Positions 8,080-22,347 of a stretch of DNA of 64,000 nt are shown here, one piece after another; positions within the stretch are counted from its first letter, which is position 1; each line of letters opens with the position of its first letter. This stretch comes from Patescibacteria group bacterium (GTDB lineage: Bacteria > Patescibacteriota > Minisyncoccia > Phycocordibacterales > CAIRYW01): the NCBI GenBank assembly GCA_040389185.1, contig JAZKAJ010000011.1:1033-65032 (forward strand), written 5' to 3'. The notes beneath the pieces were generated by a model. It was not told the DNA's origin. It saw only the letters and a program-made list of their open reading frames with translations, and ran no database searches. A program made the translations under genes and the position numbers.

Positions 8080-8165
8080 GTTAACAAGTGGCAAGTATTC
8101 AAGGATCCAAGTGAATTGAAAACTTGAACCTTGAGACTTGAATACTTTAAATTTTTAATTAAAAA

Positions 8166-8888: not shown

Positions 8889-8903
8889 ACCTAATAAATA
8901 TTT

Positions 8904-9452
8904 ATGAATCATAAAACCAGAATTGTAATTATTGTCACTCTATTGATTGTTTTTGTTCTGGGTATATATGAGCTTCAATCTCTCGAAGAAAAAGTCAATT
9001 TAAAAAATGATCCTATAACATCTATAGATGCGACAAAATCACCTATTGCAAAAGAGGATCTTGCCAAACTTTCGAATGCCGAATGGAAAAACAGACTAAC
9101 TCCAGAGCAATATGCAGTTCTTAAAGAGGGTGGGACCGAGATTCCTTTTACAAGCGATCTGCTTCATGAGACTCGCCCAGGAACTTTTGTCACAGCAGAC
9201 TGTGGTGAGCCTGTATTTCGGTCAGAGGCTAAGTTTGATTCTGGTACAGGATGGCCTAGTTTTTTTGAACCGATTAAAGGGTCTGTTATTGAAAATACTG
9301 ATACAAGTTTTGGCATGGAAAGAATCGAGATTGCCTCTGCAATTTGCCATAGTCATCTAGGACATGTTTTCGATGATGCGCCACAAACTCCAACGGGACT
9401 TCGGTATTGTATAAATGGAGTCGCACTGATCTTTATACCTGATAAGAAATAA
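8904..9452 (+). CDS. msrB: peptide-methionine (R)-S-oxide reductase MsrB with N-terminal membrane anchor
   Basis: SelR-domain motifs CGEPVFRSEAKFDSGTGWPSF and HLGHVF...GLRYCINGVAL; N-terminal TM helix. Confidence 0.85.
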   Translation: MNHKTRIVIIVTLLIVFVLGIYELQSLEEKVNLKNDPITSIDATKSPIAKEDLAKLSNAEWKNRLTPEQYAVLKEGGTEIPFTSDLLHETRPGTFVTADCGEPVFRSEAKFDSGTGWPSFFEPIKGSVIENTDTSFGMERIEIASAICHSHLGHVFDDAPQTPTGLRYCINGVALIFIPDKK

Positions 9453-9578
9453 GAAACAAAAAAATGCCTCGAAAGAGGTGTTTTTGTTTCCCGTAGAGCT
9501 GCACCTCTTTTAATTTCTCTCTCGTATCAATTATCACAAGCTGCAGTAAAGCTTGGTACTACTAGTAATATATAAATT

Positions 9579-10397
9579 ATGATACAAAAGAAAATTTTTA
9601 CATTAGGATTGCTCGCTATTATGGCGCTATTTGCAGCTACGACAGTTTTTGCAGATACAAATCAGACTAATCAAGGCGGAGGACCAGGTGGATGGCAAGG
9701 GCAAGGTGCTCCACGAATGCAGGGAGGACCACGAATGATGAATGGAGGACCAGGTGGAAAAGGTATGATGGCAAAACCTGCAGTTGTAGGTAAAGTTGAG
9801 TCTATTTCAGGCAACACTCTCACGATAACAAGTAGAGGATTTGGTCAAAATGCCGCAACCACAACATATTCTGTAGATGCTTCTCACGCAATAATCTTTA
9901 AGGCAAATGCAACAAGTACTCTCTCAAGTATTGCGACTGGAGATAATGTGATGGTAGAGGGTTCTGTTTCTGGTACAAATGTTACTGCAACAACAATTCG
10001 TGACGGTCTAGGTATGATGGGAAGAGGGGGTGTACTACCAGAAGGATTTTCAGGCAATGGTCAGCCTGTGGTTGCGGGGAATGTTACAGCTATCAGTGGT
10101 TCTACAATTACAATCTCAAATGAAAGTAATGTGACTTACACAGTGGATGCAACTAACGCAAAAGTCATGAAAGGGCGAGATGCAGGAGTTATTGGAGATG
10201 TTGCCGCGGGTGATCATCTTGTTGTTCAGGGTACTGTAAATGGTAGCTCAATTTCTGCAACAACGATATTTGATCAGAAGGTACCAACAGGGAATGGAGA
10301 TAATTCTAACGGGCAAGGAGACAAAAACGGAGGACAAATCCACCCAGGATTCTTCGGGGCAATCAGAGGATTCTTTGGAAAGTTGTTTGGATTCTAA
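9579..10397 (+). CDS. secreted glycine-rich protein with two tandem beta-rich repeats (DUF5666-like)
   Basis: Signal peptide, GGPGG repeats, and an internal duplication (GNTLTITS...VSGTNVTATTIRDG versus GSTITISN...VNGSSISATTIFD). Confidence 0.5.
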   Translation: MIQKKIFTLGLLAIMALFAATTVFADTNQTNQGGGPGGWQGQGAPRMQGGPRMMNGGPGGKGMMAKPAVVGKVESISGNTLTITSRGFGQNAATTTYSVDASHAIIFKANATSTLSSIATGDNVMVEGSVSGTNVTATTIRDGLGMMGRGGVLPEGFSGNGQPVVAGNVTAISGSTITISNESNVTYTVDATNAKVMKGRDAGVIGDVAAGDHLVVQGTVNGSSISATTIFDQKVPTGNGDNSNGQGDKNGGQIHPGFFGAIRGFFGKLFGF

Positions 10398-10475
10398 TTT
10401 AAATTAAGCGACATTCGAAAATAGGGCCACCTCGAGAGAGGTGGTTTTGTTTTGTATAGAAAATGATAGTATTGG

Positions 10476-11066
10476 GTGATCACTATGTCGCTCGATATTA
10501 TTTTAGTTTTGGTCTCGGTATGTCTCTCGTTGTTTGGGAGCTATAGGTATATTTACGATACGATTAAAGGAACAACAAGACCGAATAGGGTTTCTCAGAG
10601 TCTTTGGGCAGTCGCACCACTTATTGGTGTTGGTGCCGCAATATCTTCCGGGGCAGGAGTTTTGACTACTGTGAGGACTTTTATGTCGGGCTTTATTCCA
10701 CTTGTCATATTTATTGTTTCATTCGTAAATAAAACAGGGTATTGGAAGACAACAAAATCTGATTATTTTTGTGGAATATTTTCTTTGGTTGCACTGGTAT
10801 TGTGGCTTTTGATTGATATGCCTGTATATGCAGTTTTATTTGCTGCGCTCGCTGATATGTTTGCAGCAATTCCAACAATCAAAAAATCCTGGACCAATCC
10901 AGAAAGTGAAACAGGCGCGGCTTATGTTATGAGTTTATTAAGTGTGATAGTTATTTTACCTACAATAAAAGTGTTTGATATTCAAAATACAGTTTTCCAA
11001 ATTTATTTGTTGTTTATAGATATTGTATTAATATTTTGTATTTATAGGAGGAGGATTTTTAGATAA
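10476..11066 (+). CDS. hypothetical polytopic membrane protein
   Basis: 196-aa hydrophobic ORF; stop at 11064-11066. Confidence 0.4.
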   Translation: MITMSLDIILVLVSVCLSLFGSYRYIYDTIKGTTRPNRVSQSLWAVAPLIGVGAAISSGAGVLTTVRTFMSGFIPLVIFIVSFVNKTGYWKTTKSDYFCGIFSLVALVLWLLIDMPVYAVLFAALADMFAAIPTIKKSWTNPESETGAAYVMSLLSVIVILPTIKVFDIQNTVFQIYLLFIDIVLIFCIYRRRIFR

Positions 11067-11069
11067 ACA

Positions 11070-11264
11070 TCATCCAGTTGGACCGCGAGTACGCTTATCG
11101 AACCTTACAGGTTCAGTACACCTTTTGGTGATTTTGTTTCGTTCCTCACAAAATCAGCTCAAAAGGTTTTCGATTCCAACACGCAAGTGCCCCACACTTG
11201 CTTGGACGCACAAAAATACAAAAACCTCAGACGTTGGACGTCTGAGGTTTTTGTATTTTTGTGC
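11070..11264 (+). repeat. tRNA 3'-half mimic structured element, type-2 copy D (partner tRNA-Lys), ending in a 26-bp perfect hairpin/terminator
   Basis: The conserved block gttggaccgcgagtacgcttatcgaaccttacaggttcagtacaccttttgg is shared with 52770-52823 in the opposite orientation. ggttttcgattccaac matches the tRNA-Lys T-arm and ttggacgcac matches the tRNA-Lys acceptor 3' strand. The hairpin gcacaaaaatacaaaaacctcagacg/cgtctgaggtttttgtatttttgtgc spans 11208-11264. Confidence 0.6.
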
Positions 11265-11388
11265 CCCAACTCAGTCTCGGAATATAGGTAATGAGACCAT
11301 GTAAGGGTTCTTTGAGTGATTTCGATATAGAAAATTTAACCCAGTCGGTCGGGGTTTTGTTTTTTCAAAATGAGACAAATGAGACAGT

Positions 11389-12183
11389 TCAAGACTTTTT
11401 CTTGCGTTTCATTTTCACACGTTTTTTTGCTTCCCTGCGAGCATATCGGTTTTCCAATCTCTTCTTCTCCTCAGCTTCACGCTCTGCCATTTCCTCAGGT
11501 GACACAACTCTCATGTGTTCCATGATTCGATATCCTTTAAGATGTTCGAATGGATCAACAAATCTGTACCAAGGTTCAGAATGATACCAAGTTTCTCCAT
11601 TCCTATCTTCTTTTACCATATACGATTTCACCATTTTCCTTTGCGGTAAGAAATCTTTGTTATCTTTTATTAAAAAGATATGGCAATGAACTCGGCTACC
11701 ATCCATAACCGTTCTTGGTTTGATGATTCCTGCTTCGATCCATTCTTTTAGTTTCTTTTTGTTCACATTAAAATCACTTTCCATGTCATATTCTGAATAC
11801 CGATTGTCTCTATTCTTTGCAATGGAAGGAAGGATTTCTTTTCTATTTATTGCTTTCTGGCATATAGAACATTTGATTCCATATTGGTCATACCAGTTTT
11901 CATTTTCCTGAGTTGAGTTACCGCAGATTGCACAACTGTATCCTCGACTTTCTAATATATACCCTTTAGGAAATTCTCTAAGTTTGTTTTTTCTTCTTCG
12001 ATCTTCTAGTGCAAATTCATAAATTAAGTTTGCATACCTTCCAAGATTAGCAAAAGCTTCCTCAGCTTCATCCCAAGTAACTTCTTTGCCACCTTCTCTC
12101 TCCATAATATTCTTCATCTCCTGAACATGTTCTTCGTGAGACTTACTCATATTATAATTATAACTCCATAATATTTTTTTCAT
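11389..12183 (-). CDS. hypothetical zinc-finger protein with lysine/arginine-rich C-terminal tail
   Basis: 264 aa; CxxC...CxxC (CAICGNS...CSICQK); C-terminus EKKRLENRYARREAKKRVKMKRKKKS. TGAGACAG motifs lie at both ends of the gene. Confidence 0.45.
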   Translation of the reverse strand: MKKILWSYNYNMSKSHEEHVQEMKNIMEREGGKEVTWDEAEEAFANLGRYANLIYEFALEDRRRKNKLREFPKGYILESRGYSCAICGNSTQENENWYDQYGIKCSICQKAINRKEILPSIAKNRDNRYSEYDMESDFNVNKKKLKEWIEAGIIKPRTVMDGSRVHCHIFLIKDNKDFLPQRKMVKSYMVKEDRNGETWYHSEPWYRFVDPFEHLKGYRIMEHMRVVSPEEMAEREAEEKKRLENRYARREAKKRVKMKRKKKS

Positions 12184-12344
12184 AAATGAGACAGTCTATG
12201 TGAGTAGTTTAAATCTGAGCTCGTAAAAATCATCTTATTTCATAAGATGATTTAATTGAATTGAACCTATAAATAAAAAATAATTTTACTTAGTTTGACT
12301 TTGATGTCGGAACAGCTAGTATTACCCCGGAAGCGCTCGAGTGA

Positions 12345-13721
12345 GTGCTAAACTCGCTCCTTGAGAGCAAAACAAACAGAAACACGACTATGATATCTAA
12401 CCTTAGAGGTCAGTCAAAACTGCGTTGCATGCAATGTGGGGCAGTTGTGCCCTTGTATGGAACAGTGCAGTTCACCTGCGGAAAATGCGGTGGATTGTAT
12501 GATGTCGAACATGAGTTCGGTCACATCACAAAAGGAGGACCCGATTATTGGAAAACAATCTTCGACGTTCGCACAAAACCATCGGGCAACGTCCTGTATT
12601 CCTCTGGGGTGTGGCGGTTCCATGAACTCATCATGCCCTCTCTCGATCCACAGGAAATTGTGTCGCTTGGCGAAGGTGTGTTCCAGATACTTTCTGCGGG
12701 CAAAAAGGTTCGTGACTGGGTCGGTGGCAACACCGATTTGTGGATCGTTCCTGAAGGTCTCACTCAAACTGGTTCCTTCAAGGATCACGGTGGCACAGTT
12801 GCCATGAGTGTTGCGAAAGCAATGGGCATCAAAACCATAGCTTGTGCATCCACTGGCGACACATCCGCAATGGCAGCCGCATACGCCGCCGCAGCAGGAT
12901 TGAAGTGTGTTGTTGTCTTGCCTGCGGGTAAGGTCACCAATGTGCAACTCGCTCAACCTGTCGCTCATGGTGCACGAATCATTACGATCCCCGGATCGTT
13001 TGATGACTGCATGCGCGTCGTTCGGGAACTCTGCGAAGCAGGCAGGGTTTTTCCAATCAACAGCATCAATCCGACGCGAATCGAAGGTCATCAAGCAACC
13101 GTCTTCCTTATGGCACAGTTCCTCCAATGGCAACTACCTGATGTGTTTGTGGTTCCTGTCGGTAACGGCAGCAACTCCTCATCCATCGGCAAAGCCATCC
13201 GTCTCCTCAAACAACTCGGTCTCGTCGCAGACAAGGAATGCAAGATTATCGGTGTCCAATCCGACTCTGCAAATCCGTTGGCGACAAGTTGGGAAAGTGT
13301 TCAAAGACTGGGACGGGTTGATATTGAGAAATGGCGCTCGGTCTATCAGCCGCGGAAAGACCTCGGAGAAACAGCTGCTACAGCGGCACGGATCGGAAAT
13401 CCGGTTTCTTGGGCCAAAGTCATGCGCGAAATCTGTGCCTCCGATGGTGCGGTGCTTACAGTGACTGAAGCTGAGCTTCTCGAAGCAACCCGAACACTCG
13501 GATCTTCTGGATTCTCTGGCTGTCCGCAAACTGGGACAGCTCTCGCGGGTCTCCGGCAAGCGATTGCTCGTGGATTCGTTAAACCAGGTGCGACGGTGTC
13601 GTTGGTGTCAACGGCAACCTCACTTAAGTTCCCTGATGTGGCGATGGAGTTTGGGGGTGACTTGATCACAAGTGCAGGGTCTTGCGACACTGAGGATATC
13701 GCGAGTATCATGGGAATCTGA
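12345..13721 (+). CDS. thrC: threonine synthase-like PLP enzyme with N-terminal zinc ribbon; markedly higher GC than surrounding DNA
   Basis: Zn ribbon CMQCG...CGKCG, PLP-lysine motif TGSFKDHGGT, glycine-rich loop VPVGNGSN. Local GC is visibly about 50-55% against roughly 35-40% elsewhere, and several long ORFs on other frames overlap it, as expected for high GC. The start may be the internal ATG at 12390. Confidence 0.7.
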   Translation: MLNSLLESKTNRNTTMISNLRGQSKLRCMQCGAVVPLYGTVQFTCGKCGGLYDVEHEFGHITKGGPDYWKTIFDVRTKPSGNVLYSSGVWRFHELIMPSLDPQEIVSLGEGVFQILSAGKKVRDWVGGNTDLWIVPEGLTQTGSFKDHGGTVAMSVAKAMGIKTIACASTGDTSAMAAAYAAAAGLKCVVVLPAGKVTNVQLAQPVAHGARIITIPGSFDDCMRVVRELCEAGRVFPINSINPTRIEGHQATVFLMAQFLQWQLPDVFVVPVGNGSNSSSIGKAIRLLKQLGLVADKECKIIGVQSDSANPLATSWESVQRLGRVDIEKWRSVYQPRKDLGETAATAARIGNPVSWAKVMREICASDGAVLTVTEAELLEATRTLGSSGFSGCPQTGTALAGLRQAIARGFVKPGATVSLVSTATSLKFPDVAMEFGGDLITSAGSCDTEDIASIMGI

Positions 13722-13742
13722 TGGAGTGCTCTGACGACAATG

Positions 13743-13777
13743 GGGAGGTGGTGCTTACGGGCCCACCTCCTTTTTTA
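13743..13777 (+). terminator. intrinsic terminator
   Basis: ggaggtgg-tgcttacgggc-ccacctcc followed by TTTTTT directly after the thrC-like stop. Confidence 0.6.
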
Positions 13778-14125
13778 TTTAAATTCCTTATCCGCAGTTC
13801 TAAACATAATAACCATCATTATAATAAATGCTACACCGATAGATATTGCAATTCCTTTTTCTGTAGAAGTTGAGACATCAAGTGCAAATTGAAATATAGC
13901 TATAATCATTTGAACGATAGCAAAGAATGCAATGACTTTTGAAAATTTTTTGTTTGATGCATCTAAATCAACCATTGTTTTGTTTGTCCTCAGTGTTGCC
14001 TTTATCTGAAGCTCATTCATCTTCATTTGTTGTTTAGAAAAAGCAATCCCTGTAGAAATTTCTCCAATAGAATCGAGTGCGTCTAATATATCTTTATCTT
14101 CGGGTAAATATTGTTCTTTTTTCAT
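13775..14125 (-). CDS. hypothetical small membrane protein
   Basis: 116-aa ORF with two C-terminal TM helices. Confidence 0.35.
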   Translation of the reverse strand: MKKEQYLPEDKDILDALDSIGEISTGIAFSKQQMKMNELQIKATLRTNKTMVDLDASNKKFSKVIAFFAIVQMIIAIFQFALDVSTSTEKGIAISIGVAFIIMMVIMFRTADKEFK

Positions 14126-14373
14126 AAATTATATTGTAACATTTTGAGCTTTTATGGAAAATTTCAATTTACTTTTTTCTGTCCATAAATACCCTTATTT
14201 CCCAACACATTTTCGTGTGGATAAATTTACGAGATTCCCACAAAACGCATTTTGAATATATTAGAATGATGTTAAGGAAGAGGAGTTGTGAAATTACAAG
14301 AGTGTTAGTTTAAAGAACATTCCTGTAACTTTAGAAGCCTTCCTACAAATTAATAGTTAGTAAAAATAAAAGA

Positions 14374-15720
14374 ATGAAAAAACTTGATGAAAAGTTGGTT
14401 GTTAAGTATGTCCAAATTTCTGAGATTAAGCCCTCAGAATATAATCCACGAAAGTGGGATGCGGAACAGAAGGAATCGCTTAAGCAAAGTCTTACTCAAT
14501 TCGGTATAGTTGATCCACTGGTTTGTAATAGTGCAGAAGGGAGAATGAATATTCTCCTTGGTGGTCACTTCAGATTGGAAGTGTTGAAGGAACTTGAATA
14601 TAAAGAAGTTCCAGTGGTTTACATCAATATCTCAGATATTGAAAAAGAGAAGGAACTCAATATCAGATTAAACAAGAATACGGGAGAATTCGATTTAGAT
14701 CTGTTGGCAGAATTTGATGAGGCACTCCTTTCTAATATTGGATTTGATTCAGAAGAACTCGATACCATCTTCAACAATGATGAGGACGAAGAGGAACAAT
14801 TTGATCTCAAGAAAGAACTAGAGAAACTTAATATCAATGAAATCAAAGTAAAGAAGGGTGACGTATATGAACTCGATGGATCAAGACTTATGTGTGGCGA
14901 CAGCACGATTGAAGAAGATATGCTTTCCCTTATGGGTGAGCATAAGGCAGACATGGTAATGACTGATCCGCCATATATTCTTGATTACCTGCATGGTAAG
15001 ACAAGGCACGGAGAAGCAACAGAAGGGTTTGGATCAAAGAAAAACAGAAGATATCTTGAGACAGATGTTTTGCCTGATAACTTCACAGAACTTTGGATGG
15101 GAAATATACAAAAAATACAGAAAGAAAACTTTCATATTGTTTGCTACGAGAACTGGAAGAATATTCGTACTATCTGGAACGAGATGGAGAAGCATTGGAA
15201 AGTCCGCAATATGATTGTCTGGCATCTTCCTAATCGTGTACAGGGATATTCAGGAAAGTACAAACTCTTTAACAAGTACGATATTGCCATGGTTGGTACG
15301 ACTGAAGACGAAGTGAATCTCAACACTGAAAAGGAGGATGAGATTGTTGATAACGAGTATGAGACAGCACTCTATGCAACATCAGGATCACCACATTGGG
15401 AAAGTTACGGAGCTGGTAAGAAGATTTGTCCAACTGATTTTATTGAGTTTAAAGCCGCGGATGAGAAATCTTCAGGACAAGGAATCATCTTCGGTACAAA
15501 ACCGCTTGAGATCCTTATGCCTTACATAAAGATACTAACAGAGAGGGATGATCTTGTAGTAGAGCCTTTTGGTGGAAGTGGGTCGACATTAATAGCATCC
15601 ATCAAAATGAAAAGAAGATGCTTTCTTATGGAGAAATCTCCAGTCTATGTTGAGGTAATCCTTCGAAGATGGAGAATACAGACTGGTAAGGAGCCGGTAA
15701 AAATTTATGAGAGAGCATAA
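14374..15720 (+). CDS. ParB-like nuclease domain fused to a beta-class N6-adenine/N4-cytosine DNA methyltransferase
   Basis: The N-terminal ParB/Srx-like region (VQISEIKPSEYNPRKWD...GGHFRLEVL) precedes catalytic motif IV DPPY, which in turn precedes SAM motif I FGGSGST. That order (IV before I) marks the beta class. Such fusions are typical of phage or island orphan methyltransferases. Confidence 0.8.
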   Translation: MKKLDEKLVVKYVQISEIKPSEYNPRKWDAEQKESLKQSLTQFGIVDPLVCNSAEGRMNILLGGHFRLEVLKELEYKEVPVVYINISDIEKEKELNIRLNKNTGEFDLDLLAEFDEALLSNIGFDSEELDTIFNNDEDEEEQFDLKKELEKLNINEIKVKKGDVYELDGSRLMCGDSTIEEDMLSLMGEHKADMVMTDPPYILDYLHGKTRHGEATEGFGSKKNRRYLETDVLPDNFTELWMGNIQKIQKENFHIVCYENWKNIRTIWNEMEKHWKVRNMIVWHLPNRVQGYSGKYKLFNKYDIAMVGTTEDEVNLNTEKEDEIVDNEYETALYATSGSPHWESYGAGKKICPTDFIEFKAADEKSSGQGIIFGTKPLEILMPYIKILTERDDLVVEPFGGSGSTLIASIKMKRRCFLMEKSPVYVEVILRRWRIQTGKEPVKIYERA

Positions 15721-16096
15721 AGAAGATAAGATAAGATTTCTTGAGGAACTGCAGAAGATAGGAAATGTATGGACTGCGTGTGGAAGAATTAAGATTCCAA
15801 GATCGACAATATATCGTTGGTTAAAGACTGATCCAGAATTTAATGAATTGGCCCGAAAAGCAATGAAAATCGGTCGAATCAGCCTAAGTGAAATGACAGA
15901 GGGTGTAGTAATTAAGAAAGCTATTGTAGAAAAAGATTTGAAAGCTTCAATGTATATTCTGAGCCACAATCATCCTAGGTATATAAAACGAGAGCCACTG
16001 CCACCTAAAGATGAAAATCAGGCAATGAATTTGGCTGATCTAATTAAGAAGAGTATAAAAAAGGATGGAACGAATGAGGATTCTTTCGGACTGTGA
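15707..16096 (+). CDS. HTH-domain protein (phage terminase small-subunit-like or regulator)
   Basis: 129 aa; helix-turn-helix IPRSTIYRWLKTDPEF; overlaps the methyltransferase stop by 14 nt (translational coupling). Confidence 0.35.
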   Translation: MREHKEDKIRFLEELQKIGNVWTACGRIKIPRSTIYRWLKTDPEFNELARKAMKIGRISLSEMTEGVVIKKAIVEKDLKASMYILSHNHPRYIKREPLPPKDENQAMNLADLIKKSIKKDGTNEDSFGL

Positions 16097-16158
16097 TTAA
16101 TTACAGATCTTTATTTAAAAGAACCAGTAGTTCATACTACTGGTTCTTTTAAATAAAT

Positions 16159-16806
16159 TTACTTCACTATCGAACATCCATTCACAAGCACATTACCAAG
16201 CTTTCCAGAGAGCTCACCTTTAAGAGTTAATCGATCTCCCTTGGATACTGTTGCCAATTGAGTCTCATCAGCTTTTGAGAACATACACTGAACATTCTCA
16301 AAAGAATACTGGCTTCCGTCGGTAAGTGAAATGTATGGAGTATCAACAATGTCTTTGCCAATGGTATCAACAAGGCCTGACACTTCGACAATATTGTTCT
16401 TGTACTTTGCATCAGCAGAAACTTCATTTGCTTTGTAGTCAGCAAGAAGTTTTGTTGCTGTTACTTTGATTGCTGGTTGTTCTGGTACTGGCACAGACAC
16501 ACTTTTATCTGTTACTACTGACGGCATAACATTACTTGATGAAGTTGTACCTATTATCACAAAGAGTACTAAGACAAGAAAGACTTTCAATCCTCGAGAA
16601 AGATTGATATGTAATTTCTCCTTTATTAATTTGTTACTCGGTGGCAATACAATGATTGCGATAAGGAGAAACAAAATTCCTGAGAGAGGCTTAGTAAAAA
16701 TTGTACTTACTGCTGTAAGTAACATGACTACACCAAATACCCAAGAGAATACAGAACCTAGAGTTATGTTTTTAGTCTTAACTGAAGACTGGTTGTTGTT
16801 TTCCAT
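16159..16806 (-). CDS. membrane-anchored OB-fold protein (tRNA_anti-like / BOF-type domain)
   Basis: 215 aa; N-terminal TM, then YKANEVSADAKYKNNIVEVSGLVD...GDRLTLKGELSG typical of OB-fold anticodon-binding-like domains. Confidence 0.4.
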   Translation of the reverse strand: MENNNQSSVKTKNITLGSVFSWVFGVVMLLTAVSTIFTKPLSGILFLLIAIIVLPPSNKLIKEKLHINLSRGLKVFLVLVLFVIIGTTSSSNVMPSVVTDKSVSVPVPEQPAIKVTATKLLADYKANEVSADAKYKNNIVEVSGLVDTIGKDIVDTPYISLTDGSQYSFENVQCMFSKADETQLATVSKGDRLTLKGELSGKLGNVLVNGCSIVK

Positions 16807-17070
16807 TGTAGCGAGTTTTTATAACATGACAGGTAGACAAAAAGCCCTCCGCCATGGCGATGGTCCGAAGACCACCCACATCCGTTTCCAGATATGACTC
16901 GCTACAAGTACCCTGACGAAGGGTTTTTTATCTTGTAGCGAGCTTTTCGACCATATCCTTTAAAACTTTTAAGGGTTTCAAAGGGGTTAGGTCTCTTATT
17001 AAGTTGTACTAAACAATAATACCAAGATTATAGGTATTAGTCAGTACCTTAGCTCGGATTAGGAATTTTA

Positions 17071-17091
17071 GGTAATCGAGTTACCAACAGC
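17071..17091. promoter_or_regulatory. candidate recombinase half-site GGTAA-tcgag-TTACCAACAG (shares an 11-mer with 18505-18515)
   Basis: gttaccaacag at 17080-17090 is identical to 18505-18515; small inverted repeat ggtaa/ttacc. Confidence 0.3.
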
Positions 17092-17478
17092 TTAGAATTG
17101 TGCTTTTTGACCCCAATTACCATCATCCCAGGCGGGTTTATCCGTTCCTGTGATATGAAATTCTCCATCATCCATCATTTCGCCGTAATAGACAGTGCCT
17201 GGTAGCCAGGCGGTTTCTCCAAGAAATTCTGATATAGCTTCTCCAGACTTCTGATAAACATAATTTATAATATTGTCTCCAGAATAATCACGAACATGAG
17301 TGTAAGGCATTACAGGGTTTGGAATTCCCATAAGAAAAAGGGTTGTCTTTTCTTTACCTGTCACTTCTTTTAATTCTGATCGTAGAAGAAACCGCAATCC
17401 TGTTCCAAGATACTCACCAGTACTCAACATATAACTTTTACTTGCAGTTTTAATTTCTGTTTCTTTATTCTCACTCAT
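17092..17478 (-). CDS. hypothetical protein
   Basis: 128-aa ORF; no recognisable motif. Confidence 0.35.
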   Translation of the reverse strand: MSENKETEIKTASKSYMLSTGEYLGTGLRFLLRSELKEVTGKEKTTLFLMGIPNPVMPYTHVRDYSGDNIINYVYQKSGEAISEFLGETAWLPGTVYYGEMMDDGEFHITGTDKPAWDDGNWGQKAQF

Positions 17479-17516
17479 TGTTTAATGATATTTAATATCG
17501 GTTAAATTGATAATGG

Positions 17517-17894
17517 TTATTTTTTAAGCTTCAATATCTGTGCCCAGCCTTTCTCATGAATGTCCTTTGCAAGAATAACTAATCGTCCCGCAAAAAAAGC
17601 AACACCCATACCCAAGACAGATAAACAAAGACCCGAAGCGAATGGATTTGTAAGTAAATTTGATAGACGTGGGTCAAGTTTTTCTAATCCACCATAAGCA
17701 GCAATCAGGGCGATTCCCCAGAATGCACTAAATCCTATATATTCGAATTCACTAAGTTTTTTATCCAAGTTTACTGTTTTCCTGTAAGACCACACAGTTA
17801 TAAAACCTGTGAAGATAATATAGAAGTAAACATATGCGTCATCTGTTGGATTCATATTTTTTAATTTTCTAATAATTATGACCCGTTCCTCCAA
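17517..17894 (-). CDS. hypothetical membrane protein
   Basis: 125 aa, three hydrophobic helices. Confidence 0.35.
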   Translation of the reverse strand: MEERVIIIRKLKNMNPTDDAYVYFYIIFTGFITVWSYRKTVNLDKKLSEFEYIGFSAFWGIALIAAYGGLEKLDPRLSNLLTNPFASGLCLSVLGMGVAFFAGRLVILAKDIHEKGWAQILKLKK

Positions 17895-17918
17895 ATTAAG
17901 GAGGAACGGGTTCTGTCA

Positions 17919-18203
17919 CTATCTCGCTGGAACTAAATCACCACACCAAGCTGTATATTGTAAGACAAGAATATTTGATGTCTTACCTGTACTGTTGGAT
18001 GACGTCTTTGCAAGAATGTGGACCTGCTGACAAGTTGCTGTAGTGTTTAGGGTGTATTCGGCAGTCGGAAGACTGTATCGAGCACCGTTACCTGCAGTGA
18101 TTGTCTTAACGAATCCTGCACGCTGCATTGCAGTATGAAGGATGTTATAATCGTTAGGATAGATAGCGTTGTGCAATTCTACTCTGATAAAGTATGAATT
18201 CAT
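17919..18203 (-). CDS. hypothetical small protein
   Basis: 94 aa (FIRVELHNAIYPNDYNILHTAMQRAGF...); first gene of a three-gene minus-strand block. Confidence 0.35.
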   Translation of the reverse strand: MNSYFIRVELHNAIYPNDYNILHTAMQRAGFVKTITAGNGARYSLPTAEYTLNTTATCQQVHILAKTSSNSTGKTSNILVLQYTAWCGDLVPAR

Positions 18204-18241
18204 TTTGTTTTCTAAGATTGGTTAATAAAATCGACCGTTAA

Positions 18242-18275
18242 CAAAAAGCGATGACCCCTCGGTCATCGCTTTTTG
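18242..18275. terminator. bidirectional intrinsic terminator
   Basis: aagcgatgacc-cctc-ggtcatcgctt flanked by AAAAA and TTTTT. Confidence 0.55.
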
Positions 18276-18483
18276 TATGGAATTTTTTTAGAGTAAATAA
18301 CTACTTATGATTCTATAATTTTAGTGATGATCGAAGGCTGTGAAGTTTGTTGTTTTGTTATGTTATGTTTTTTGCCTTCGAGATTGATGTCTCGTACGAA
18401 TATTGATCTATGTAGTTTTCAATGAACTTAACGATAATATATCACTATTTTTTATTTGCACAAACCGGGTAAAGTTTATATCC

Positions 18484-18515
18484 CTGTTGGTAAATTGGGG
18501 ATAAGTTACCAACAG
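18484..18515. promoter_or_regulatory. 32-bp imperfect palindrome CTGTTGGTAA-N12-GTTACCAACAG, candidate serine-recombinase site
   Basis: Perfect 10-bp inverted arms; lies about 30 nt upstream of the recombinase ORF; 11-mer shared with 17080-17090. Confidence 0.45.
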
Positions 18516-18541
18516 TCCAACCTGGACTCTCAAGAGGGGTT

Positions 18542-19879
18542 GTGTCATTCATTGAGTATATGAGTAGCGCAACAAATGCACCATTAGGAACAACAGCTAA
18601 AATAGTAATACCTGTAAAGGTGAAATACTGTCTTTACGCTAGAAAAAGCACAGAATCGGAAGAAGCTCAGATTCTTTCGATTGATAGCCAAATAAGGGAA
18701 ATGCAACAAATGGCAGACAGGGAGTGTTTGGAGATAGTTGAAATAAAGAGAGAATCACACTCCGCCAAAGAAGCAGGACAACGACCTGTGTTTAATGAGA
18801 TTGTAGAAGAAATTAAACTTGGAAAATTTAATGGAATTCTGACTTGGGCGGCAGATAGAATAAGTCGTAATGCGGGGGATCTTGGAAGAATTGTAGATCT
18901 AATGGATGCTGAGAAGCTTCATGATATTAGAACCTATAGCCAAAGATTCACCAACAATCCCAATGAGAAATTTCTTCTTATGATTCTTGGCTCACAAGCA
19001 AAGCTTGAGAATGACAATAAGGTGTTGAATGTAAAAAGAGGACTTAAAGCACGGTGTGAGATGGGACTCTGGCCTTGTGTACCGCCGACTGGATATTTAA
19101 GAAACAAGAATGTTGATAATAAATGTTTACCTGAAATAGATTCATATAGAGGAGCAATAATTAAGAAATGTTTTGAAAAAATAGCTTATGAAAAATGGTC
19201 AGGTAGAAAAGTATATAAATGGTTAAGAGACGAAGTAAACTTTAAAACAAAGACAGGTAAAATATATACTTTGAGCAATCTATATCTTACGTTACGGAAT
19301 CACTTCTATTACGGCACTTTTGAATATCCAAAAGACAGCGGTCATTGGTATACAGGTAAACATACACCCCTCATAACCAAAGAGTTGTTTGATAAGGTAC
19401 AGGAAGGAATAAGTAATTACAATGATCGAAACGAACACAAGGAATTCGCTTTTACAAAGATAATGTCTTGCGGACTGTGTGGATCTGGGATTACTGCTGA
19501 TGAGAAATTTAAGAAACTGGCGAATGGCAGTGTTCAGAGATATGTGTATTATGGTTGCACAAGATTTAATGATCGTGATTGTAAATCAGGATGGATCAAT
19601 GAAGTTGATCTTATAGAACAATTAGCTAATCTAATGGGCAATATTGATCTCGATGAAATTGGCATGAAGGAAAAGATAAAAGAAGAAATAGAACGACATA
19701 AGAAGTTTAGTTTGGGGCTACTAGGCGAAAAAGCTAAAGTAATTAAGACAACTGATATTGATATTCGAAATTATGCCAAATATGTTCTCCGCGACGGTGC
19801 CTCATGGGAGAAAAGAGAGTTATTGGGATGCTTAAGAAGTAAGATTTCCCTAAATGCAAAAAAGATAGAGATTCACTAA
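18542..19879 (+). CDS. large serine recombinase (resolvase catalytic domain plus recombinase domain plus zinc ribbon)
   Basis: Catalytic-serine motif CLYARKSTESEE; GDLGRIVDLMD and LLMILGSQAKLENDN regions; C-terminal Cys cluster CGLCGSG...YYGC. The true start is probably the ATG at 18560. Confidence 0.85.
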   Translation: MSFIEYMSSATNAPLGTTAKIVIPVKVKYCLYARKSTESEEAQILSIDSQIREMQQMADRECLEIVEIKRESHSAKEAGQRPVFNEIVEEIKLGKFNGILTWAADRISRNAGDLGRIVDLMDAEKLHDIRTYSQRFTNNPNEKFLLMILGSQAKLENDNKVLNVKRGLKARCEMGLWPCVPPTGYLRNKNVDNKCLPEIDSYRGAIIKKCFEKIAYEKWSGRKVYKWLRDEVNFKTKTGKIYTLSNLYLTLRNHFYYGTFEYPKDSGHWYTGKHTPLITKELFDKVQEGISNYNDRNEHKEFAFTKIMSCGLCGSGITADEKFKKLANGSVQRYVYYGCTRFNDRDCKSGWINEVDLIEQLANLMGNIDLDEIGMKEKIKEEIERHKKFSLGLLGEKAKVIKTTDIDIRNYAKYVLRDGASWEKRELLGCLRSKISLNAKKIEIH

Positions 19880-19888
19880 GCCGGTAAG

Positions 19889-20128
19889 CTATTCCATTGC
19901 ATTCTTTTTGATTCTATACCATTCTCTTACATCAAGTTGTAAATAATCTTTACAGTCCAAAAGAATTTTAGATAACTCTTTATGTCTATACATATCTTCT
20001 AGCGGTGGCGCTGGTCGAATATCTCGTCGAATATTGGAATCCCTATCATAAACTTGAAACGCATAATTTATTGTGGTATCAATTTTTTTATACTCTTCAT
20101 AAAGCTTTAAGTATTCTTTTTCTTCCAT
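19889..20128 (-). CDS. hypothetical small protein (third gene of the nuclease operon)
   Basis: 79 aa; 17-nt gap from the upstream gene on the same strand. Confidence 0.4.
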   Translation of the reverse strand: MEEKEYLKLYEEYKKIDTTINYAFQVYDRDSNIRRDIRPAPPLEDMYRHKELSKILLDCKDYLQLDVREWYRIKKNAME

Positions 20129-20145
20129 GCAATTTATGTTATTGA

Positions 20146-20463
20146 TTATTTAATCGAATAAGCGAACTGAAGCATGCCGTTTGTTTGCGGATAAAAATCA
20201 AATAAAGTCTCAAAATTATCTTGATTTTCAGATGTCTGGAATTTGACATACTTTAAATTGGTCTTTTCTTCAAACCACTTTTTTAAAACTTCATCAACCT
20301 TTATATCTTTTGTTTGCTTCTTGAAGAGTCTGGATAGAAATACTATGTCAGCACAAACAATAATTTTACATAAAATACTACCATTATCGTCTTCAATAAA
20401 ACTCCTTTGCCAAAAAACATCAGCATGCCAATCCTCTTTAATATTTCCTAGAATTAATTTCAC
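20146..20463 (-). CDS. hypothetical small protein (second gene of the nuclease operon)
   Basis: 105 aa; its start overlaps the upstream gene's stop by 4 nt (ATGA), implying translational coupling. Confidence 0.4.
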   Translation of the reverse strand: MKLILGNIKEDWHADVFWQRSFIEDDNGSILCKIIVCADIVFLSRLFKKQTKDIKVDEVLKKWFEEKTNLKYVKFQTSENQDNFETLFDFYPQTNGMLQFAYSIK

Positions 20464-21683
20464 AGTTTTGATCTTAAATTTTTAAGGTTTTCGAGTAATT
20501 CATCATAGAGAATGAAGTTTATATTTTTCAATGATGATCCAAGCTTCCTGAAATCAGCTGACTCTTTTTTATTTTTGAACTGCTTGCTTGTACCAGCAAT
20601 AATATATCCTCGCGGTCTTACCACCTGTATATCAATACCTTTTTTATTTTTTACAGCACGAATATATGCGTCAGAATTATGAACGATCTCATCAGTGTAA
20701 TTTTCTATTTGAGCAATAGCCATTGAAACATCCGGCTTCCAATAATAATTATCATGATCTTTATCAAAACTAAGCAATGAAACATCATGTTTCTTTATTT
20801 CAAAAACATCAACAAATCCATATACATCCACTAATACGAAGTCGGGGTAGCTAACACTAATACTTACATTTTGTTTTTCAATTGCAGTGACATAATTGGC
20901 CATAAATCGAAACACCTTTTCACTAAGAAATTTTTGCCAATCATTTTCGGAAATGCTTTTTTTAGCCAAATTTGCCTCAAACTCTTTAATAACTTCATCA
21001 AGATAAATTCTATCTGTAGTAGTTTTAGCGCTTTTAATTAGTGTAGCGCGCCCATTTTTTATTCCTCGTTTTTTACCTTTAAGAGAACCTTCAAATATTT
21101 TCGGGAAGAAGTTATTAAGCGACTCAAGATCCTCCTCATTTAGCCTTTGAGCTACTTTCTTACGTCGTAAGAGAGCAGCAATCTCACCTGCCTTATACTC
21201 ATCAAAATCGTCAGTAGAAATCTTTATGTCTTTTGGAAACTTAGTACTTAAAAAAGATGCTACAGCACTTCGTAACTCATTATTACTGTCTTCGTTAATA
21301 CGACCAAGTTTAATAAGAAGATTTTTTATGTCTAAAAGCGGCAGAACAACAGAAACCTTATGCTTTCCTTTATGAACCTTCTTTGTCTTCTTGGAAACAA
21401 TAAGTTCAAGAACTTTGGATCCCGCTAAATGCTCCTTCAGAGCAGTAAGGAGGAAAATTCCTTTTTTTCCAAAACCATAACCTTTTTTATTAAGATAAAG
21501 TCCTGAAGGAAGACCTTGATAACCTTCGAGAGTAATACTTGATACTTGTTTTGATTTTGCAGGTTGTAAATAGTAGATGGTCTTATCTGATTTAGGATAT
21601 ACCTCATATACACAAAAGTCAGGTTTATCAGACGCATAATGACGTTCTGGAATTTCAATCTTTTTATCTTTTTTTGCAACCAT
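20460..21683 (-). CDS. PD-(D/E)xK nuclease-domain protein, Shedu (DUF4263)-like or RecB/Cas4-like C-terminal domain, lysine-rich N-terminal region
   Basis: 407 aa. The C-terminal region shows the ordered motifs YPDFVLVD, then DVFEIKK ((D/E)xK), then AIAQIENY (QxxxY), as in RecB-family and Shedu-type nucleases. The N-terminal 280 aa are K-rich with no recognised domain. The Shedu assignment is made from motifs only. Confidence 0.5.
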   Translation of the reverse strand: MVAKKDKKIEIPERHYASDKPDFCVYEVYPKSDKTIYYLQPAKSKQVSSITLEGYQGLPSGLYLNKKGYGFGKKGIFLLTALKEHLAGSKVLELIVSKKTKKVHKGKHKVSVVLPLLDIKNLLIKLGRINEDSNNELRSAVASFLSTKFPKDIKISTDDFDEYKAGEIAALLRRKKVAQRLNEEDLESLNNFFPKIFEGSLKGKKRGIKNGRATLIKSAKTTTDRIYLDEVIKEFEANLAKKSISENDWQKFLSEKVFRFMANYVTAIEKQNVSISVSYPDFVLVDVYGFVDVFEIKKHDVSLLSFDKDHDNYYWKPDVSMAIAQIENYTDEIVHNSDAYIRAVKNKKGIDIQVVRPRGYIIAGTSKQFKNKKESADFRKLGSSLKNINFILYDELLENLKNLRSKL

Positions 21684-21790
21684 ATATAAGCTACTTTATA
21701 CCATAAAAATAGCCCAATTTCATTGGTTAAAATAACTTAAACTATAGACTATGTTGGACTTGACCCAACTTAGTAGGTCTCACATGTGGG

Positions 21791-21863
21791 TGCGTCCAGT
21801 TGGAATCGAACCAACGACCGTCTCCTTAAAAGGGAGCTGCTCTACCGACTGAGCTATGGACGC
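21791..21863 (-). tRNA. tRNA-Lys (anticodon UUU)
   Basis: Cloverleaf: acceptor GCGTCCA/TGGACGC; D-arm GCTC-AGTCGGTA-GAGC; anticodon loop CTTTTAA; T-arm GTTGG-TTCGATT-CCAAC. CCA is not encoded. Confidence 0.85.
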
Positions 21864-21924
21864 AATACGTGAAAATATATCAGAAAATCAGAAAAAGTCC
21901 ACTTTCACGAGTGAGTAGTTCTTA

Positions 21925-22347
21925 TTAAATCATCAAGTCTATGGCATAATATCCCGCTCCAGAGATGAAGAGGGAAAGCATTATTGCAGCGAGGAGTACA
22001 TAGACATTCAAATCTCTTTCGATTGTTGATGTTCCACTCCTTTGTATCAGTAATCCTACAATACAAATGATGAAAAAAATGAGTGCTACGAGTTGAGTCA
22101 TAAATCCCATAAGGAGCATTATTCCTCCCAAGAGTTCTGCGATAGTGATGACGTACGCATAGAATTCATAGGGTTTAAAATGAATTTCTCGAAAGAAAAT
22201 GAGTTTGTTTTGCCACTCGGAAGTCATACCTCTGTAGCCGAAATAAATGAAATATGCCCCACCAACAATTCGGAGGATAAATGGAACGATAAGGCTCCAA
22301 CTAAGGAGATATGGAAATATGCTTTGCATACACATATTATACAACAA
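21925..22347 (-). CDS. DoxX-family membrane protein
   Basis: 140 aa, four TM helices; RIVGGAYFIYFGYRGM and ELLGGIMLLMG motifs are typical of DoxX. Confidence 0.55.
   Translation of the reverse strand: MLYNMCMQSIFPYLLSWSLIVPFILRIVGGAYFIYFGYRGMTSEWQNKLIFFREIHFKPYEFYAYVITIAELLGGIMLLMGFMTQLVALIFFIICIVGLLIQRSGTSTIERDLNVYVLLAAIMLSLFISGAGYYAIDLMI

What the first reader, a model, noticed from the sequence alone, without database searches (positions are those of the whole stretch)
19889..21683. Candidate undescribed defence module: Shedu-like PD-(D/E)xK nuclease plus two translationally coupled small proteins
The 407-aa protein (20460-21683) has C-terminal motifs in canonical order: YPDFVLVD, then DVFEIKK, then AIAQIENY. 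That is PD...(D/E)xK...QxxxY, as in RecB/Cas4-family and Shedu (DUF4263) nucleases. Its N-terminal region is long, K-rich and unassigned.

Its stop overlaps by 4 nt (ATGA) the start of a 105-aa ORF, and a 79-aa ORF follows 17 nt later. This is a tight three-gene operon with no recognisable partner domains.

Classical Shedu is a single-gene system. A nuclease with two obligate small partners, carried on a recombinase island next to a methyltransferase, would be a new configuration: the partners could be a sensor, an inhibitor or an antitoxin.
Basis: inference. Interest (0 to 1): 0.85.

Follow-up and report, generated by a model that had tools for sequence, protein, structure and literature searches.

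The report
Shedu nuclease with two small partners
This is a genuine Shedu anti-phage nuclease gene followed by two small, real but uncharacterised genes, carried on a 3.3-kb mobile cassette beside a tRNA gene; the nuclease is a known type, while the small partners are an undescribed and optional add-on.

Summary
Three minus-strand ORFs of 407, 105 and 79 aa lie at the stated coordinates. One correction: the 4-nt overlap is GTGA, not ATGA.

The 407-aa protein is a true Shedu nuclease (SduA). It scores 91 bits on Pfam SduA_C (cutoff 27), its PD-(D/E)xK residues are invariant, and its best structural matches are solved SduA structures.

Both small ORFs are real genes under purifying selection.
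- p105 is a rare family (24 clusters in 5.8 billion proteins) with a confident α/β fold that matches no characterised fold. In every context seen it follows sduA. Its start overlaps the sduA stop in all but one locus.
- p79 is a second small family. It follows sduA in three arrangements, but also follows a TdeIII restriction enzyme, an Abi_alpha protein and a Hypoth_Ymh protein.

Neither is obligate. p105 occurs in 7 of 18 loci of the relevant SduA sub-clade, and sister loci with SduA 80–83% identical to the window's lack it or carry unrelated genes in that position.

The operon is cargo of a roughly 3.3-kb large-serine-recombinase cassette at the tRNA-Lys 3′ end.

Verdict: a known system with an undescribed accessory configuration, and moderate interest. 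A two-component Shedu (KELShedu) is already published, but its partner has a different fold and lies upstream.

The parts
21787..21864 (-). tRNA-Lys (anticodon TTT). Its 3' end abuts the cassette and is the inferred integration target.
   Evidence: ARAGORN. Related cassettes abut the 3' ends of tRNA-Arg, tRNA-Ser or tRNA-Gln.
21769..21783 (-). Motif GTGAGACCTACTAAG, 3 nt after the tRNA 3' end. It is the inferred tRNA-proximal end of the cassette.
   Evidence: Conserved at the same position in L001 and L028. L001 and L028 are near-identical from this motif inward and unrelated outward.
21695..21703 (-). Extended -10 promoter TGGTATAAA. Its last base lies 11 nt before the sduA ATG, which implies a near-leaderless mRNA.
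   Evidence: TTTTTGTGGTATAAY is conserved at the same distance from the ATG in L001, L028, L029, L030, L033, L068 and L103. The generic promoter scan was uninformative.
20460..21683 (-). sduA: a 407-aa Shedu nuclease. It has an N-terminal beta-rich domain and helical linker (about residues 10-265) and a C-terminal DUF4263 PD-(D/E)xK domain (residues 245-397; D281, D292, E295, K297, Q325, Y329).
   Evidence: Pfam PF14082 at 91.2 bits against a cutoff of 27. Fifteen PADLOC SduA models match. Invariant residues come from a 24-sequence alignment. PDB sequence hit 8TI8. Foldseek gives 8PS4 at E 3e-10 and 8TI9 at TMt 0.74-0.76.
20146..20463 (-). p105: a 105-aa accessory protein linked to sduA. Its GTG start overlaps the sduA stop (GTGA). 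It is a small alpha/beta family with no assigned fold.
19889..20128 (-). p79: a 79-aa protein of a small family found directly 3' of diverse defence effectors.
   Evidence: phmmer finds 9 further representative clusters of 75-82 aa. The domain is fused to a zinc ribbon after p105 in L004, L044, L052 and L111-L113, and directly after sduA in L067. It also follows TdeIII, Abi_alpha and Hypoth_Ymh genes. dN/dS of the fused form is 0.07-0.16.
18542..19879 (+). Large serine recombinase or integrase (445 aa from the GTG; the true start may be the ATG at 18557), convergent with the sduA operon.
   Evidence: Pfam Resolvase, Recombinase and Zn_ribbon_recom. phrog_95 integrase at E 3e-56. Nearest NCBIfam is SCC CcrB. 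Homologues at 55-73% identity flank sduA in at least 13 loci.
18505..18548 (+). Conserved block GTTACCAAC...CCTGGACTCTCAAGAGGGGTTGTGTCAT just upstream of the recombinase gene. It is inferred to be the recombinase-proximal end or a control region of the cassette.
   Evidence: Present upstream of the recombinase in L001, L004, L019, L028, L029, L030, L042, L043 and L058. Sequence further upstream is unrelated between loci. DNA similarity to L001 and L004 starts at 18521.

Best explanation
The locus is a Shedu anti-phage system carried as cargo of a small integrative cassette of about 3.3 kb (window roughly 18505-21786). The cassette is mobilised by a large serine recombinase and sits at the 3' end of tRNA-Lys in a Patescibacteria genome.

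SduA is the effector. From what is known of the Shedu family (an inference for this protein), it should form a tetramer whose C-terminal PD-(D/E)xK domains are held in check by the N-terminal domains until an infection cue, probably a feature of phage DNA, releases DNA cleavage.

The two small ORFs are real, conserved, optional accessory genes occupying an exchangeable slot just 3' of sduA.
- p105 is translationally coupled to SduA and has been seen only after sduA. I infer that it is a Shedu-specific subunit made in step with SduA that binds it and tunes its activation, either as a safety catch or as an added sensor.
- p79 is a more general small protein that trails several kinds of defence effector. 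I infer that it is a generic modulator of such effectors.

Shown: the Shedu identity, that the small ORFs are protein-coding, the linkage pattern, the optional distribution and the cassette context. Inferred: physical interaction, the direction of regulation, and the mobility of the cassette.
For: Shedu identity:
- Pfam SduA_C scores 91.2 bits against a cutoff of 27.
- Fifteen PADLOC SduA models match, best E 2e-24.
- Catalytic D281, E295, K297, Q325 and Y329 are invariant in 24 homologues.
- The best PDB matches are SduA structures.

p105 is a real gene tied to sduA:
- It forms a family of 24 clusters of about 105 aa.
- dN/dS is 0.08-0.20.
- The AF2 model has pLDDT 94.4.
- It follows sduA with an ATGA/GTGA overlap in the window, L001, L004/L037, L043/L044, L052, L056, L103/L104, L111-L114 and the P0130 contig.
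- It stays at the sduA 3' end when the recombinase lies on the other side (L004 type) and when two other genes separate it from the recombinase (L103).

p79:
- Family found, alignment.
- The p79 domain follows sduA in three architectures.

Optional distribution and exchangeable slot.

Cassette:
- Related recombinases flank sduA, and a tRNA gene abuts the cassette in many loci.
- Both cassette ends and the promoter are conserved.

Precedent for a small Shedu partner that binds the nuclease and tunes it: KELShedu.
Against:
- Loci whose SduA is 80-83% identical to the window's (L028, L029, L030, L031, L034) lack p105, so SduA evidently works without it.
- Unrelated genes occupy the same position in L028 and L029, the latter with the same overlapping start. 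This fits a cargo hotspot as well as it fits a regulatory slot.
- In L003 another gene separates sduA from p105.
- p79 also follows non-Shedu genes, so its link to SduA may be incidental.
- No att repeats or empty sites were found, so mobility is inferred only from comparison between loci.
- No experiment shows defence activity for this clade.
Confidence: 0.6

Rival explanations
1. The small ORFs are independent cargo. The stretch between sduA and the recombinase is simply a hotspot where unrelated small genes (other mini-defence, toxin-antitoxin or anti-defence genes) accumulate, with no functional interaction with SduA.
For: The slot content varies widely between sister loci: nothing in L019 and L042; p105 only in L001; p105 plus p79 in the window; a 229-aa ORF in L028; a 132-aa ORF in L029; p105 plus a 435-aa ORF and a HEPN-like 164-aa ORF in L103. 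p79 relatives follow unrelated defence genes. SduA orthologues without partners are common.
Against: p105 has never been seen away from sduA in about 14 contexts. It keeps a 4-nt start/stop overlap in two subfamilies that share only 17-26% identity. The order sduA-p105-p79 is preserved although the rest of the cassette is rearranged. Independent cargo would not be expected to keep translational coupling to one particular upstream gene.
Confidence: 0.22
2. The small ORFs serve the mobile element and not the defence system. They would be, for example, a recombination directionality factor or excision regulator for the large serine recombinase; such factors are typically small, diverse and unannotatable.
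For: In the window they lie between sduA and the recombinase, and the p79 stop is 9 nt from the recombinase stop. p105 co-occurs with a recombinase of at least 61% identity in most loci with enough flank. Directionality factors for serine integrases have no common fold (general knowledge).
Against: p105 tracks sduA, not the recombinase. In L004-type cassettes the recombinase is upstream of sduA on the far side. In L103 two genes intervene. Many cassettes with a related recombinase have no p105 or p79 (L019, L028, L029, L030, L042, L058). p79 relatives occur beside TdeIII, Abi_alpha and Ymh genes with no recombinase called on those contigs, although the contigs are short.
Confidence: 0.08
3. 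One reading: an obligate three-component system in which the nuclease cannot function safely or at all without both small proteins, acting as sensor, inhibitor or antitoxin.
For: The operon is tight, translational coupling is conserved, and the three-gene order recurs. In KELShedu both components are needed for defence.
Against: Only 7 of 18 sub-clade loci have p105 and 5 of 18 have the p79 domain. L001 and L103 have p105 without p79, and L067 has the p79 domain without p105. Loci whose SduA is 80-83% identical to the window's stand alone or have other neighbours. An antitoxin that is dispensable for near-identical toxins is unlikely.
Confidence: 0.08
4. The small ORFs are chance ORFs in AT-rich DNA and are not genes.
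For: They are short, have no database annotation or domain, and show no obvious Shine-Dalgarno sequences.
Against: Diverged homologues exist with dN/dS of 0.07-0.20. The p105 model has pLDDT 94. Conserved residues are seen across 22 and 14 sequences.
Confidence: 0.01

Closest known systems
Classical single-gene Shedu (SduA; B. cereus 8TI8/8TI9, E. coli 8PS4; Doron 2018, Gu et al. 2025, Loeff et al. 2025)
   Same: It has the same C-terminal DUF4263 PD-(D/E)xK domain with intact catalytic residues. It has the same overall plan of N-terminal regulatory domain, helical linker and nuclease. It is carried on mobile DNA, as is common for Shedu.
   Different: The N-terminal region has no sequence match to solved Shedu N-terminal domains or to any Pfam family above its cutoff. 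In this sub-clade the gene is often followed by translationally coupled small genes, whereas the Shedu survey describes Shedu as a single-gene system and lists RM, BREX, transposon and prophage neighbourhoods and histidine kinases for type 1F.
KELShedu two-component system (KELA + KELB; Sci Adv 2025, PMC12577705)
   Same: A DUF4263 nuclease is encoded in a tight operon with a protein of about 105-111 aa that has no enzymatic domain. In KELShedu the partner binds the nuclease and tunes its activation, which is the role I infer for p105.
SCC-type cassettes (large serine recombinase Ccr plus cargo, inserted at a fixed chromosomal site) and recombinase-linked defence cargo generally
   Same: A large serine recombinase whose nearest NCBIfam model is CcrB (E 1.5e-32) sits beside a short cargo. 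The cassette is inserted at a conserved housekeeping RNA gene end. Defence genes travelling with recombinases is a recognised pattern.
   Different: This cassette is much smaller, about 3.3 kb with one recombinase. Its targets are tRNA 3' ends that differ between cassettes (Lys, Arg, Ser, Gln). The score is far below the CcrB equivalog cutoff (113 against 900 bits). Excision and att sites are not demonstrated.
DUF1488 (PDB 2gpi), the best structural neighbour of p105
   Different: Identity is only 11%, there is no Pfam DUF1488 hit, and DUF1488 itself has no known function. The match therefore gives no functional lead.

Membership tests
Shedu (SduA / DUF4263, PF14082) | DUF4263/SduA_C domain scoring above the curated threshold | tested here: met
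   PF14082 scores 91.2 bits against a cutoff of 27, covering residues 245-397 and profile positions 3-159 of 159. Fifteen PADLOC SduA models match.
Shedu (SduA / DUF4263, PF14082) | Intact PD-(D/E)xK catalytic motif (PD ... ExK) plus the downstream QxxxY | tested here: met
   D281, D292, E295, K297, Q325 and Y329 are invariant in the 24-sequence alignment A1.
Shedu (SduA / DUF4263, PF14082) | Fold of the nuclease domain matches solved SduA structures | tested here: met
   Foldseek gives E. coli SduA 8PS4 at E 3e-10 and the B. cereus nuclease domain 8TI9 at TMt 0.74-0.76. The profile hit to 8TI8 has E 7e-7. The model has a mean pLDDT of 75.9.
Shedu (SduA / DUF4263, PF14082) | Homotetramer with N-terminal domains regulating the nuclease | not testable with these tools
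   No multimer prediction was available. The feature is inferred from family knowledge.
Shedu (SduA / DUF4263, PF14082) | Confers anti-phage defence that depends on the nuclease active site | not testable with these tools
   This needs phage-challenge assays.
KELShedu-type two-component Shedu | Small partner encoded immediately upstream of the DUF4263 gene | tested here: not met
   p105 and p79 lie downstream. Upstream of sduA are the promoter and tRNA-Lys.
KELShedu-type two-component Shedu | Partner binds the nuclease N-terminal region and dsDNA, and both are required for defence | not testable with these tools
   This needs biochemistry. Comparative data argue that the partners here are not required.
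Toxin-antitoxin or nuclease-immunity pair | The protective partner always accompanies the toxic nuclease | tested here: not met
   p105 is present in 7 of 18 distinct sub-clade loci. L028, L029 and L030, whose SduA is 82-83% identical to the window's, lack it.
Large serine recombinase integrative element | Resolvase catalytic domain, Recombinase domain and zinc-ribbon domain | tested here: met
   PF00239 at 68.9 bits, PF07508 at 44.9 bits and PF13408 at 25.5 bits, all above their cutoffs. phrog_95 integrase at E 3e-56.
Large serine recombinase integrative element | Defined att sites at both ends, and an empty target site in relatives | tested here: inconclusive
   Both ends carry blocks conserved between loci.

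The most novel reading that the evidence does not exclude
SduA, p105 and p79 form a multi-subunit Shedu. p105 would be a new-fold, fast-evolving regulatory or sensor subunit specific to Shedu. p79 would represent a previously unrecognised class of small 'universal' co-factors plugged onto the 3' end of unrelated defence effectors (Shedu, a type II restriction enzyme, Abi_alpha, Ymh). The whole would be disseminated across phyla, including CPR bacteria, by minimal tRNA-targeting serine-integrase cassettes.
Probability: 0.25. Interest if true: 0.7.

Novelty: new variant of a known kind. Interest (0 to 1): 0.45.

Why it matters
Shedu is treated as the archetypal single-protein defence system in which one polypeptide both senses and cleaves. 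A sub-clade in which the nuclease gene is repeatedly followed by translationally coupled, fast-evolving small proteins suggests that Shedu regulation can be split off to separate, swappable subunits. Only one published case, KELShedu, has shown this so far, and it uses a different partner.

The p79 family, which trails several unrelated defence effectors, could be a shared accessory worth testing across systems.

The 3.3-kb cassette of recombinase plus Shedu shows how a defence gene may spread among very distant lineages. It also gives a compact, clonable unit for experiments in organisms (CPR bacteria) whose immunity is little studied.

If the small proteins turn out to be unrelated cargo, the locus is just another Shedu on a mobile element.

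Tried and rejected
- **att repeats:** I searched for direct repeats of the tRNA 3' end across 8000-22200, for an inverted or direct second copy of GTGAGACCTACTAAG, and for inverted repeats across 17800-21900. No convincing pair was found.
- **Generic promoter/terminator scan:** counts equalled the shuffled expectation and no terminator was found, so I relied on conservation between loci instead.
- **Domain and family searches for p105 and p79:** Pfam, PADLOC, PHROGs and NCBIfam gave nothing credible.
- **PDB profile searches:** p105 gave only weak interleukin-1-beta hits (E 7e-4), which I rejected as chance because the confident model is alpha/beta and not a beta-trefoil. p79 gave nothing.
- **Viral origin or anti-defence idea for p105:** there was no relative in 2.9 million viral contigs and no BFVD fold match below E 0.05.
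- **p79 viral scan:** it could not run because the alignment was too diverse.
- **afdb50 fold library:** unavailable.
- **Detached Shedu domain idea:** hhalign tests of p105 or p79 against the SduA alignment, and of p105 against p79, gave probabilities below 1%.
- **DNA-mimic idea:** the small proteins are only mildly acidic (pI mostly 4.8-5.9 for p105 and 4.5-8.4 for p79), which is not distinctive.
- **N-terminal region of SduA against PDB sequences:** no hit.
rejected. The contexts differ between loci and are mobile.
Full report
**1. Observation**

The three ORFs are present on the minus strand exactly where stated: 407 aa (20460-21683, ATG), 105 aa (20146-20463) and 79 aa (19889-20128, ATG). 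The 407-aa protein contains YPDFVLVD, DVFEIKK and AIAQIENY in that order. The 105-aa ORF starts with GTG inside ...CTGTGAAA..., so the 4-nt overlap with the sduA stop is GTGA, not ATGA. The next ORF starts 17 nt after the 105-aa stop.

A 445-aa ORF (18542-19879, plus strand) converges on the operon, and its stop lies 9 nt from the p79 stop. tRNA-Lys(TTT) lies at 21787-21864 on the minus strand, about 100 nt upstream of sduA.

**2. The nuclease is a bona fide Shedu protein**

- Pfam SduA_C (PF14082) matches residues 245-397 at 91.2 bits against a cutoff of 27.
- Fifteen PADLOC SduA models match, the best at E 2e-24.
- A search of 5.8 billion proteins returned at least 194 homologues. Most are 405-412 aa and align over the full length at 55-83% identity. 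They come from Kaiser-, Nomura-, Vogel-, Staskawicz- and Saccharibacteria, Ignavibacteria, Omnitrophota, Planctomycetales, Elusimicrobiota and Nanoarchaeota bins, and NCBI already names some 'Shedu immune nuclease family protein'.
- In a 24-sequence alignment D281, D292, E295, K297, Q325 and Y329 are invariant, and the N-terminal half is also strongly conserved.
- A profile of the family hits B. cereus SduA (8TI8, E 7e-7).
- The AF2 model (pLDDT 75.9) finds E. coli SduA 8PS4 (E 3e-10) and the B. cereus nuclease domain 8TI9 (TMt 0.74-0.76) as its best PDB matches.
- The N-terminal 240 residues have no sequence match in the PDB and only a sub-threshold Pfam hit (PHA01746-like, 20.9 bits against a cutoff of 24.4).

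More strongly, this is a member of the family, and standard defence annotators would label it Shedu.

**3. p105 is a real gene linked to sduA**

Alone it found only itself (an NCBI Patescibacteria MAG protein) and one 59%-identical protein. tblastn and HMM searches of sduA loci fetched from genomes then found diverged copies right after sduA in L001, L004 and, one gene further on, L003.

A profile search then gave 24 clusters, all 91-107 aa and none with a Pfam domain. They form two subfamilies that share only 17-26% identity.

In every context I could inspect, p105 follows sduA. These contexts are the window, L001, L003, L004/L037, L043/L044, L052, L056, L103/L104, L111-L114 and the P0130 contig. 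In all but L003 its ATG overlaps the sduA stop as ATGA (GTGA in the window).

Other properties:
- dN/dS is 0.08-0.20, so it encodes a protein. Its dN is about 3.5-4 times that of sduA in the same locus pairs.
- AF2 gives a very confident compact alpha/beta domain (pLDDT 94.4, pTM 0.86), with four antiparallel strands, two helices, a fifth strand and a third helix.
- Nothing was found in BFVD, PHROGs, Pfam, PDB sequences or viral contigs.

**4. p79 is a real gene too, but not Shedu-specific**

An exhaustive phmmer search of 1.84 billion representatives found nine further clusters of 75-82 aa at 34-51% identity.

An HMM of these detects the same domain in two other places:
- at the C-terminus of 125-139-aa ORFs that follow p105 in L004/L037, L044, L052 and L111-L113, where it is preceded by a CxxC...CxxC zinc ribbon;
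- in a 124-aa ORF that follows sduA directly, without p105, in L067.

Y10, E12, Y13, R48, W70 and I73 are invariant. dN/dS of the fused form is 0.07-0.16.

Stand-alone p79 relatives sit after other genes:
- A 283-aa Hypoth_Ymh protein, with overlapping stop and start (L105).
- An Abi_alpha protein plus a 123-aa ORF (L106).
- A TdeIII type II restriction endonuclease, E 3e-49 (L109).
- An HTH-like fragment (L108).

p79 therefore trails diverse defence effectors.

**5. The partners are optional and the position is an exchangeable slot**

Among about 100 sduA loci from genome and metagenome scans, p105, p79 and the related recombinase are concentrated in one sub-clade of the SduA tree. Of 18 distinct sub-clade loci with enough downstream sequence, 7 have p105 and 5 have the p79 domain.

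Presence is patchy:
- L001 (p105, no p79) is sister to L029, which has an unrelated 132-aa ORF whose start likewise overlaps the sduA stop.
- L103 (p105 plus a 435-aa and a HEPN-like 164-aa gene) is sister to L028, which has an unrelated 229-aa ORF.
- In L019 and L042 the recombinase follows sduA directly.

SduA proteins with and without partners show similar identity to the window's SduA (75-83%). 'Obligate' is therefore not supported.

**6. Genomic vehicle**

The convergent ORF is a large serine recombinase. It has the Resolvase, Recombinase and Zn_ribbon_recom domains, matches phrog_95 integrase, and its nearest NCBIfam model is SCC CcrB. Homologues at 55-73% identity flank sduA in at least 13 loci.

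These cassettes abut the 3' end of a tRNA gene, and the tRNA differs between them:
- Lys in the window.
- Arg(GCG) in L001, L004, L111 and L114.
- Ser(TGA) in L010 and L019.
- Gln in L029 and L103. The tRNA-Gln-adjacent loci L005, L033 and L068 show no related recombinase on the sequence available.

Conserved features of the cassette:
- The motif GTGAGACCTAC directly follows the tRNA in the window, L001 and L028. L001 and L028 are near-identical from there inward and unrelated outward.
- An extended -10 (TTTTTGTGGTATAAY) lies 12-15 nt before the sduA ATG in eight loci, implying a near-leaderless transcript.
- A block of about 45 nt (GTTACCAAC...CAAGAGGGGTTGCGTCAT) precedes the recombinase gene, with unrelated sequence beyond it.

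The conserved unit in the window is therefore roughly 18505-21786, about 3.3 kb. In L004-type cassettes the sduA operon is inverted relative to the recombinase, yet p105 and the p79 fusion stay attached to sduA. I found no repeat pair marking att sites, so mobility is inferred.

It sits among phage-like and foreign genes, including a 53%-GC PALP enzyme.

**7. Mechanism**

Shown:
- a Shedu nuclease with an intact active site;
- two conserved small protein-coding genes co-transcribed with it, and for p105 translationally coupled to it;
- the cassette context.

Inferred from family knowledge: SduA acts as an autoinhibited tetramer whose N-terminal domains gate the PD-(D/E)xK domains until a phage-associated cue releases DNA cleavage.

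My best reading is that p105 is a Shedu-specific accessory subunit that binds SduA and tunes activation. Four observations support this:
- p105 has been seen only after sduA;
- the overlap is conserved in two very diverged subfamilies;
- p105 stays with sduA through cassette rearrangements;
- it evolves faster than sduA, as expected for a regulatory or sensing interface.

p79 would be a more general small modulator of defence effectors. Because close SduA orthologues lack both, they can only modulate a function that SduA has on its own.

The main rival is that the slot is a cargo hotspot and the small genes act independently. A role as recombination directionality factors is less likely, because the genes track sduA and not the recombinase. 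The obligate three-component reading and the non-gene reading are contradicted by the distribution and by dN/dS together with the fold prediction.

**8. Comparison with what is known**

The large Shedu survey (bioRxiv 10.1101/2023.08.10.552793) describes Shedu as a single-gene system with 79 N-terminal-domain clusters. It lists only RM, BREX, transposon and prophage neighbourhoods, plus histidine kinases for type 1F.

Serine recombinases as markers of defence cargo are known in general, but the study I found concerns small serine recombinases and does not mention Shedu.

**9. Verdict**

The system itself is known (Shedu). The configuration is a new variant of a known kind: it combines a Shedu-specific, translationally coupled small protein with no assigned fold, a defence-trailing small protein, and a minimal tRNA-adjacent serine-recombinase cassette. 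I could not find this combination described.

Interest is moderate at 0.45. The finding is useful for the question of how Shedu is regulated and spread, but it is not a new kind of system, and the functional link of the small proteins remains to be shown.

Noticed in passing
window 17517-18203 (minus strand): The 94-aa ORF at 17919-18203 matches Pfam GhoS (23.1 bits, cutoff 21) and NCBIfam YmfI_phage (E 8e-9). Next to it is a 125-aa membrane-like ORF at 17517-17894. This may be a GhoS/GhoT-like type V toxin-antitoxin pair just outside the recombinase end of the cassette.
   Followed up: no
window 12345-13721 (plus strand): A PALP-family (threonine-synthase-like) gene has 52-54% GC in a background of about 36% GC. 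It is clearly foreign DNA within the wider island.
   Followed up: no
window 14374-16096 (plus strand); L105 119-3222: A ParB_N plus N6/N4 DNA methylase gene overlaps a terminase-small-subunit-like HTH gene, which looks phage-derived. A similar set (N6_N4 methylase, HTH_Tnp_1_2 and a 480-aa ORF) lies beside the p79 homologue in L105.
   Followed up: partly
L029 6215-6613; L028 1825-2514; L058 1392-2099: Unrelated genes occupy the p105 position in sister cassettes. L029 has a 132-aa ORF whose start overlaps the sduA stop. L028 has a 229-aa ORF, which appears in fragments in L058. Neither has a credible Pfam match.
   Followed up: partly
L103 4075-8137: This is a larger version of the cassette. 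After tRNA-Gln it carries a 79-aa ORF (not p79-like) and a DUF559 endonuclease-like gene upstream of sduA. A 435-aa ORF and a weak HEPN-like 164-aa ORF lie between p105 and the recombinase.
   Followed up: partly
window 21695-21703 and the equivalent positions in L001, L028, L029, L030, L033, L068, L103: The conserved extended -10 element ends only about 11 nt before the sduA start codon, and there is no Shine-Dalgarno sequence. sduA is probably translated from a leaderless or near-leaderless mRNA.
   Followed up: partly
L001-L019 and L028-L079 (sduA loci): Full-length SduA orthologues at 58-83% identity occur in bins assigned to very distant lineages (CPR groups, Ignavibacteria, Omnitrophota, Planctomycetales, Elusimicrobiota, Nanoarchaeota). 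This points to recent horizontal spread of this Shedu clade.
   Followed up: partly
window 16159-16806 (minus strand): A 215-aa protein has an N-terminal membrane segment and a tRNA_anti-like OB-fold domain (PF12869, E 1e-24). It lies between the phage-like genes and the cassette.
   Followed up: no
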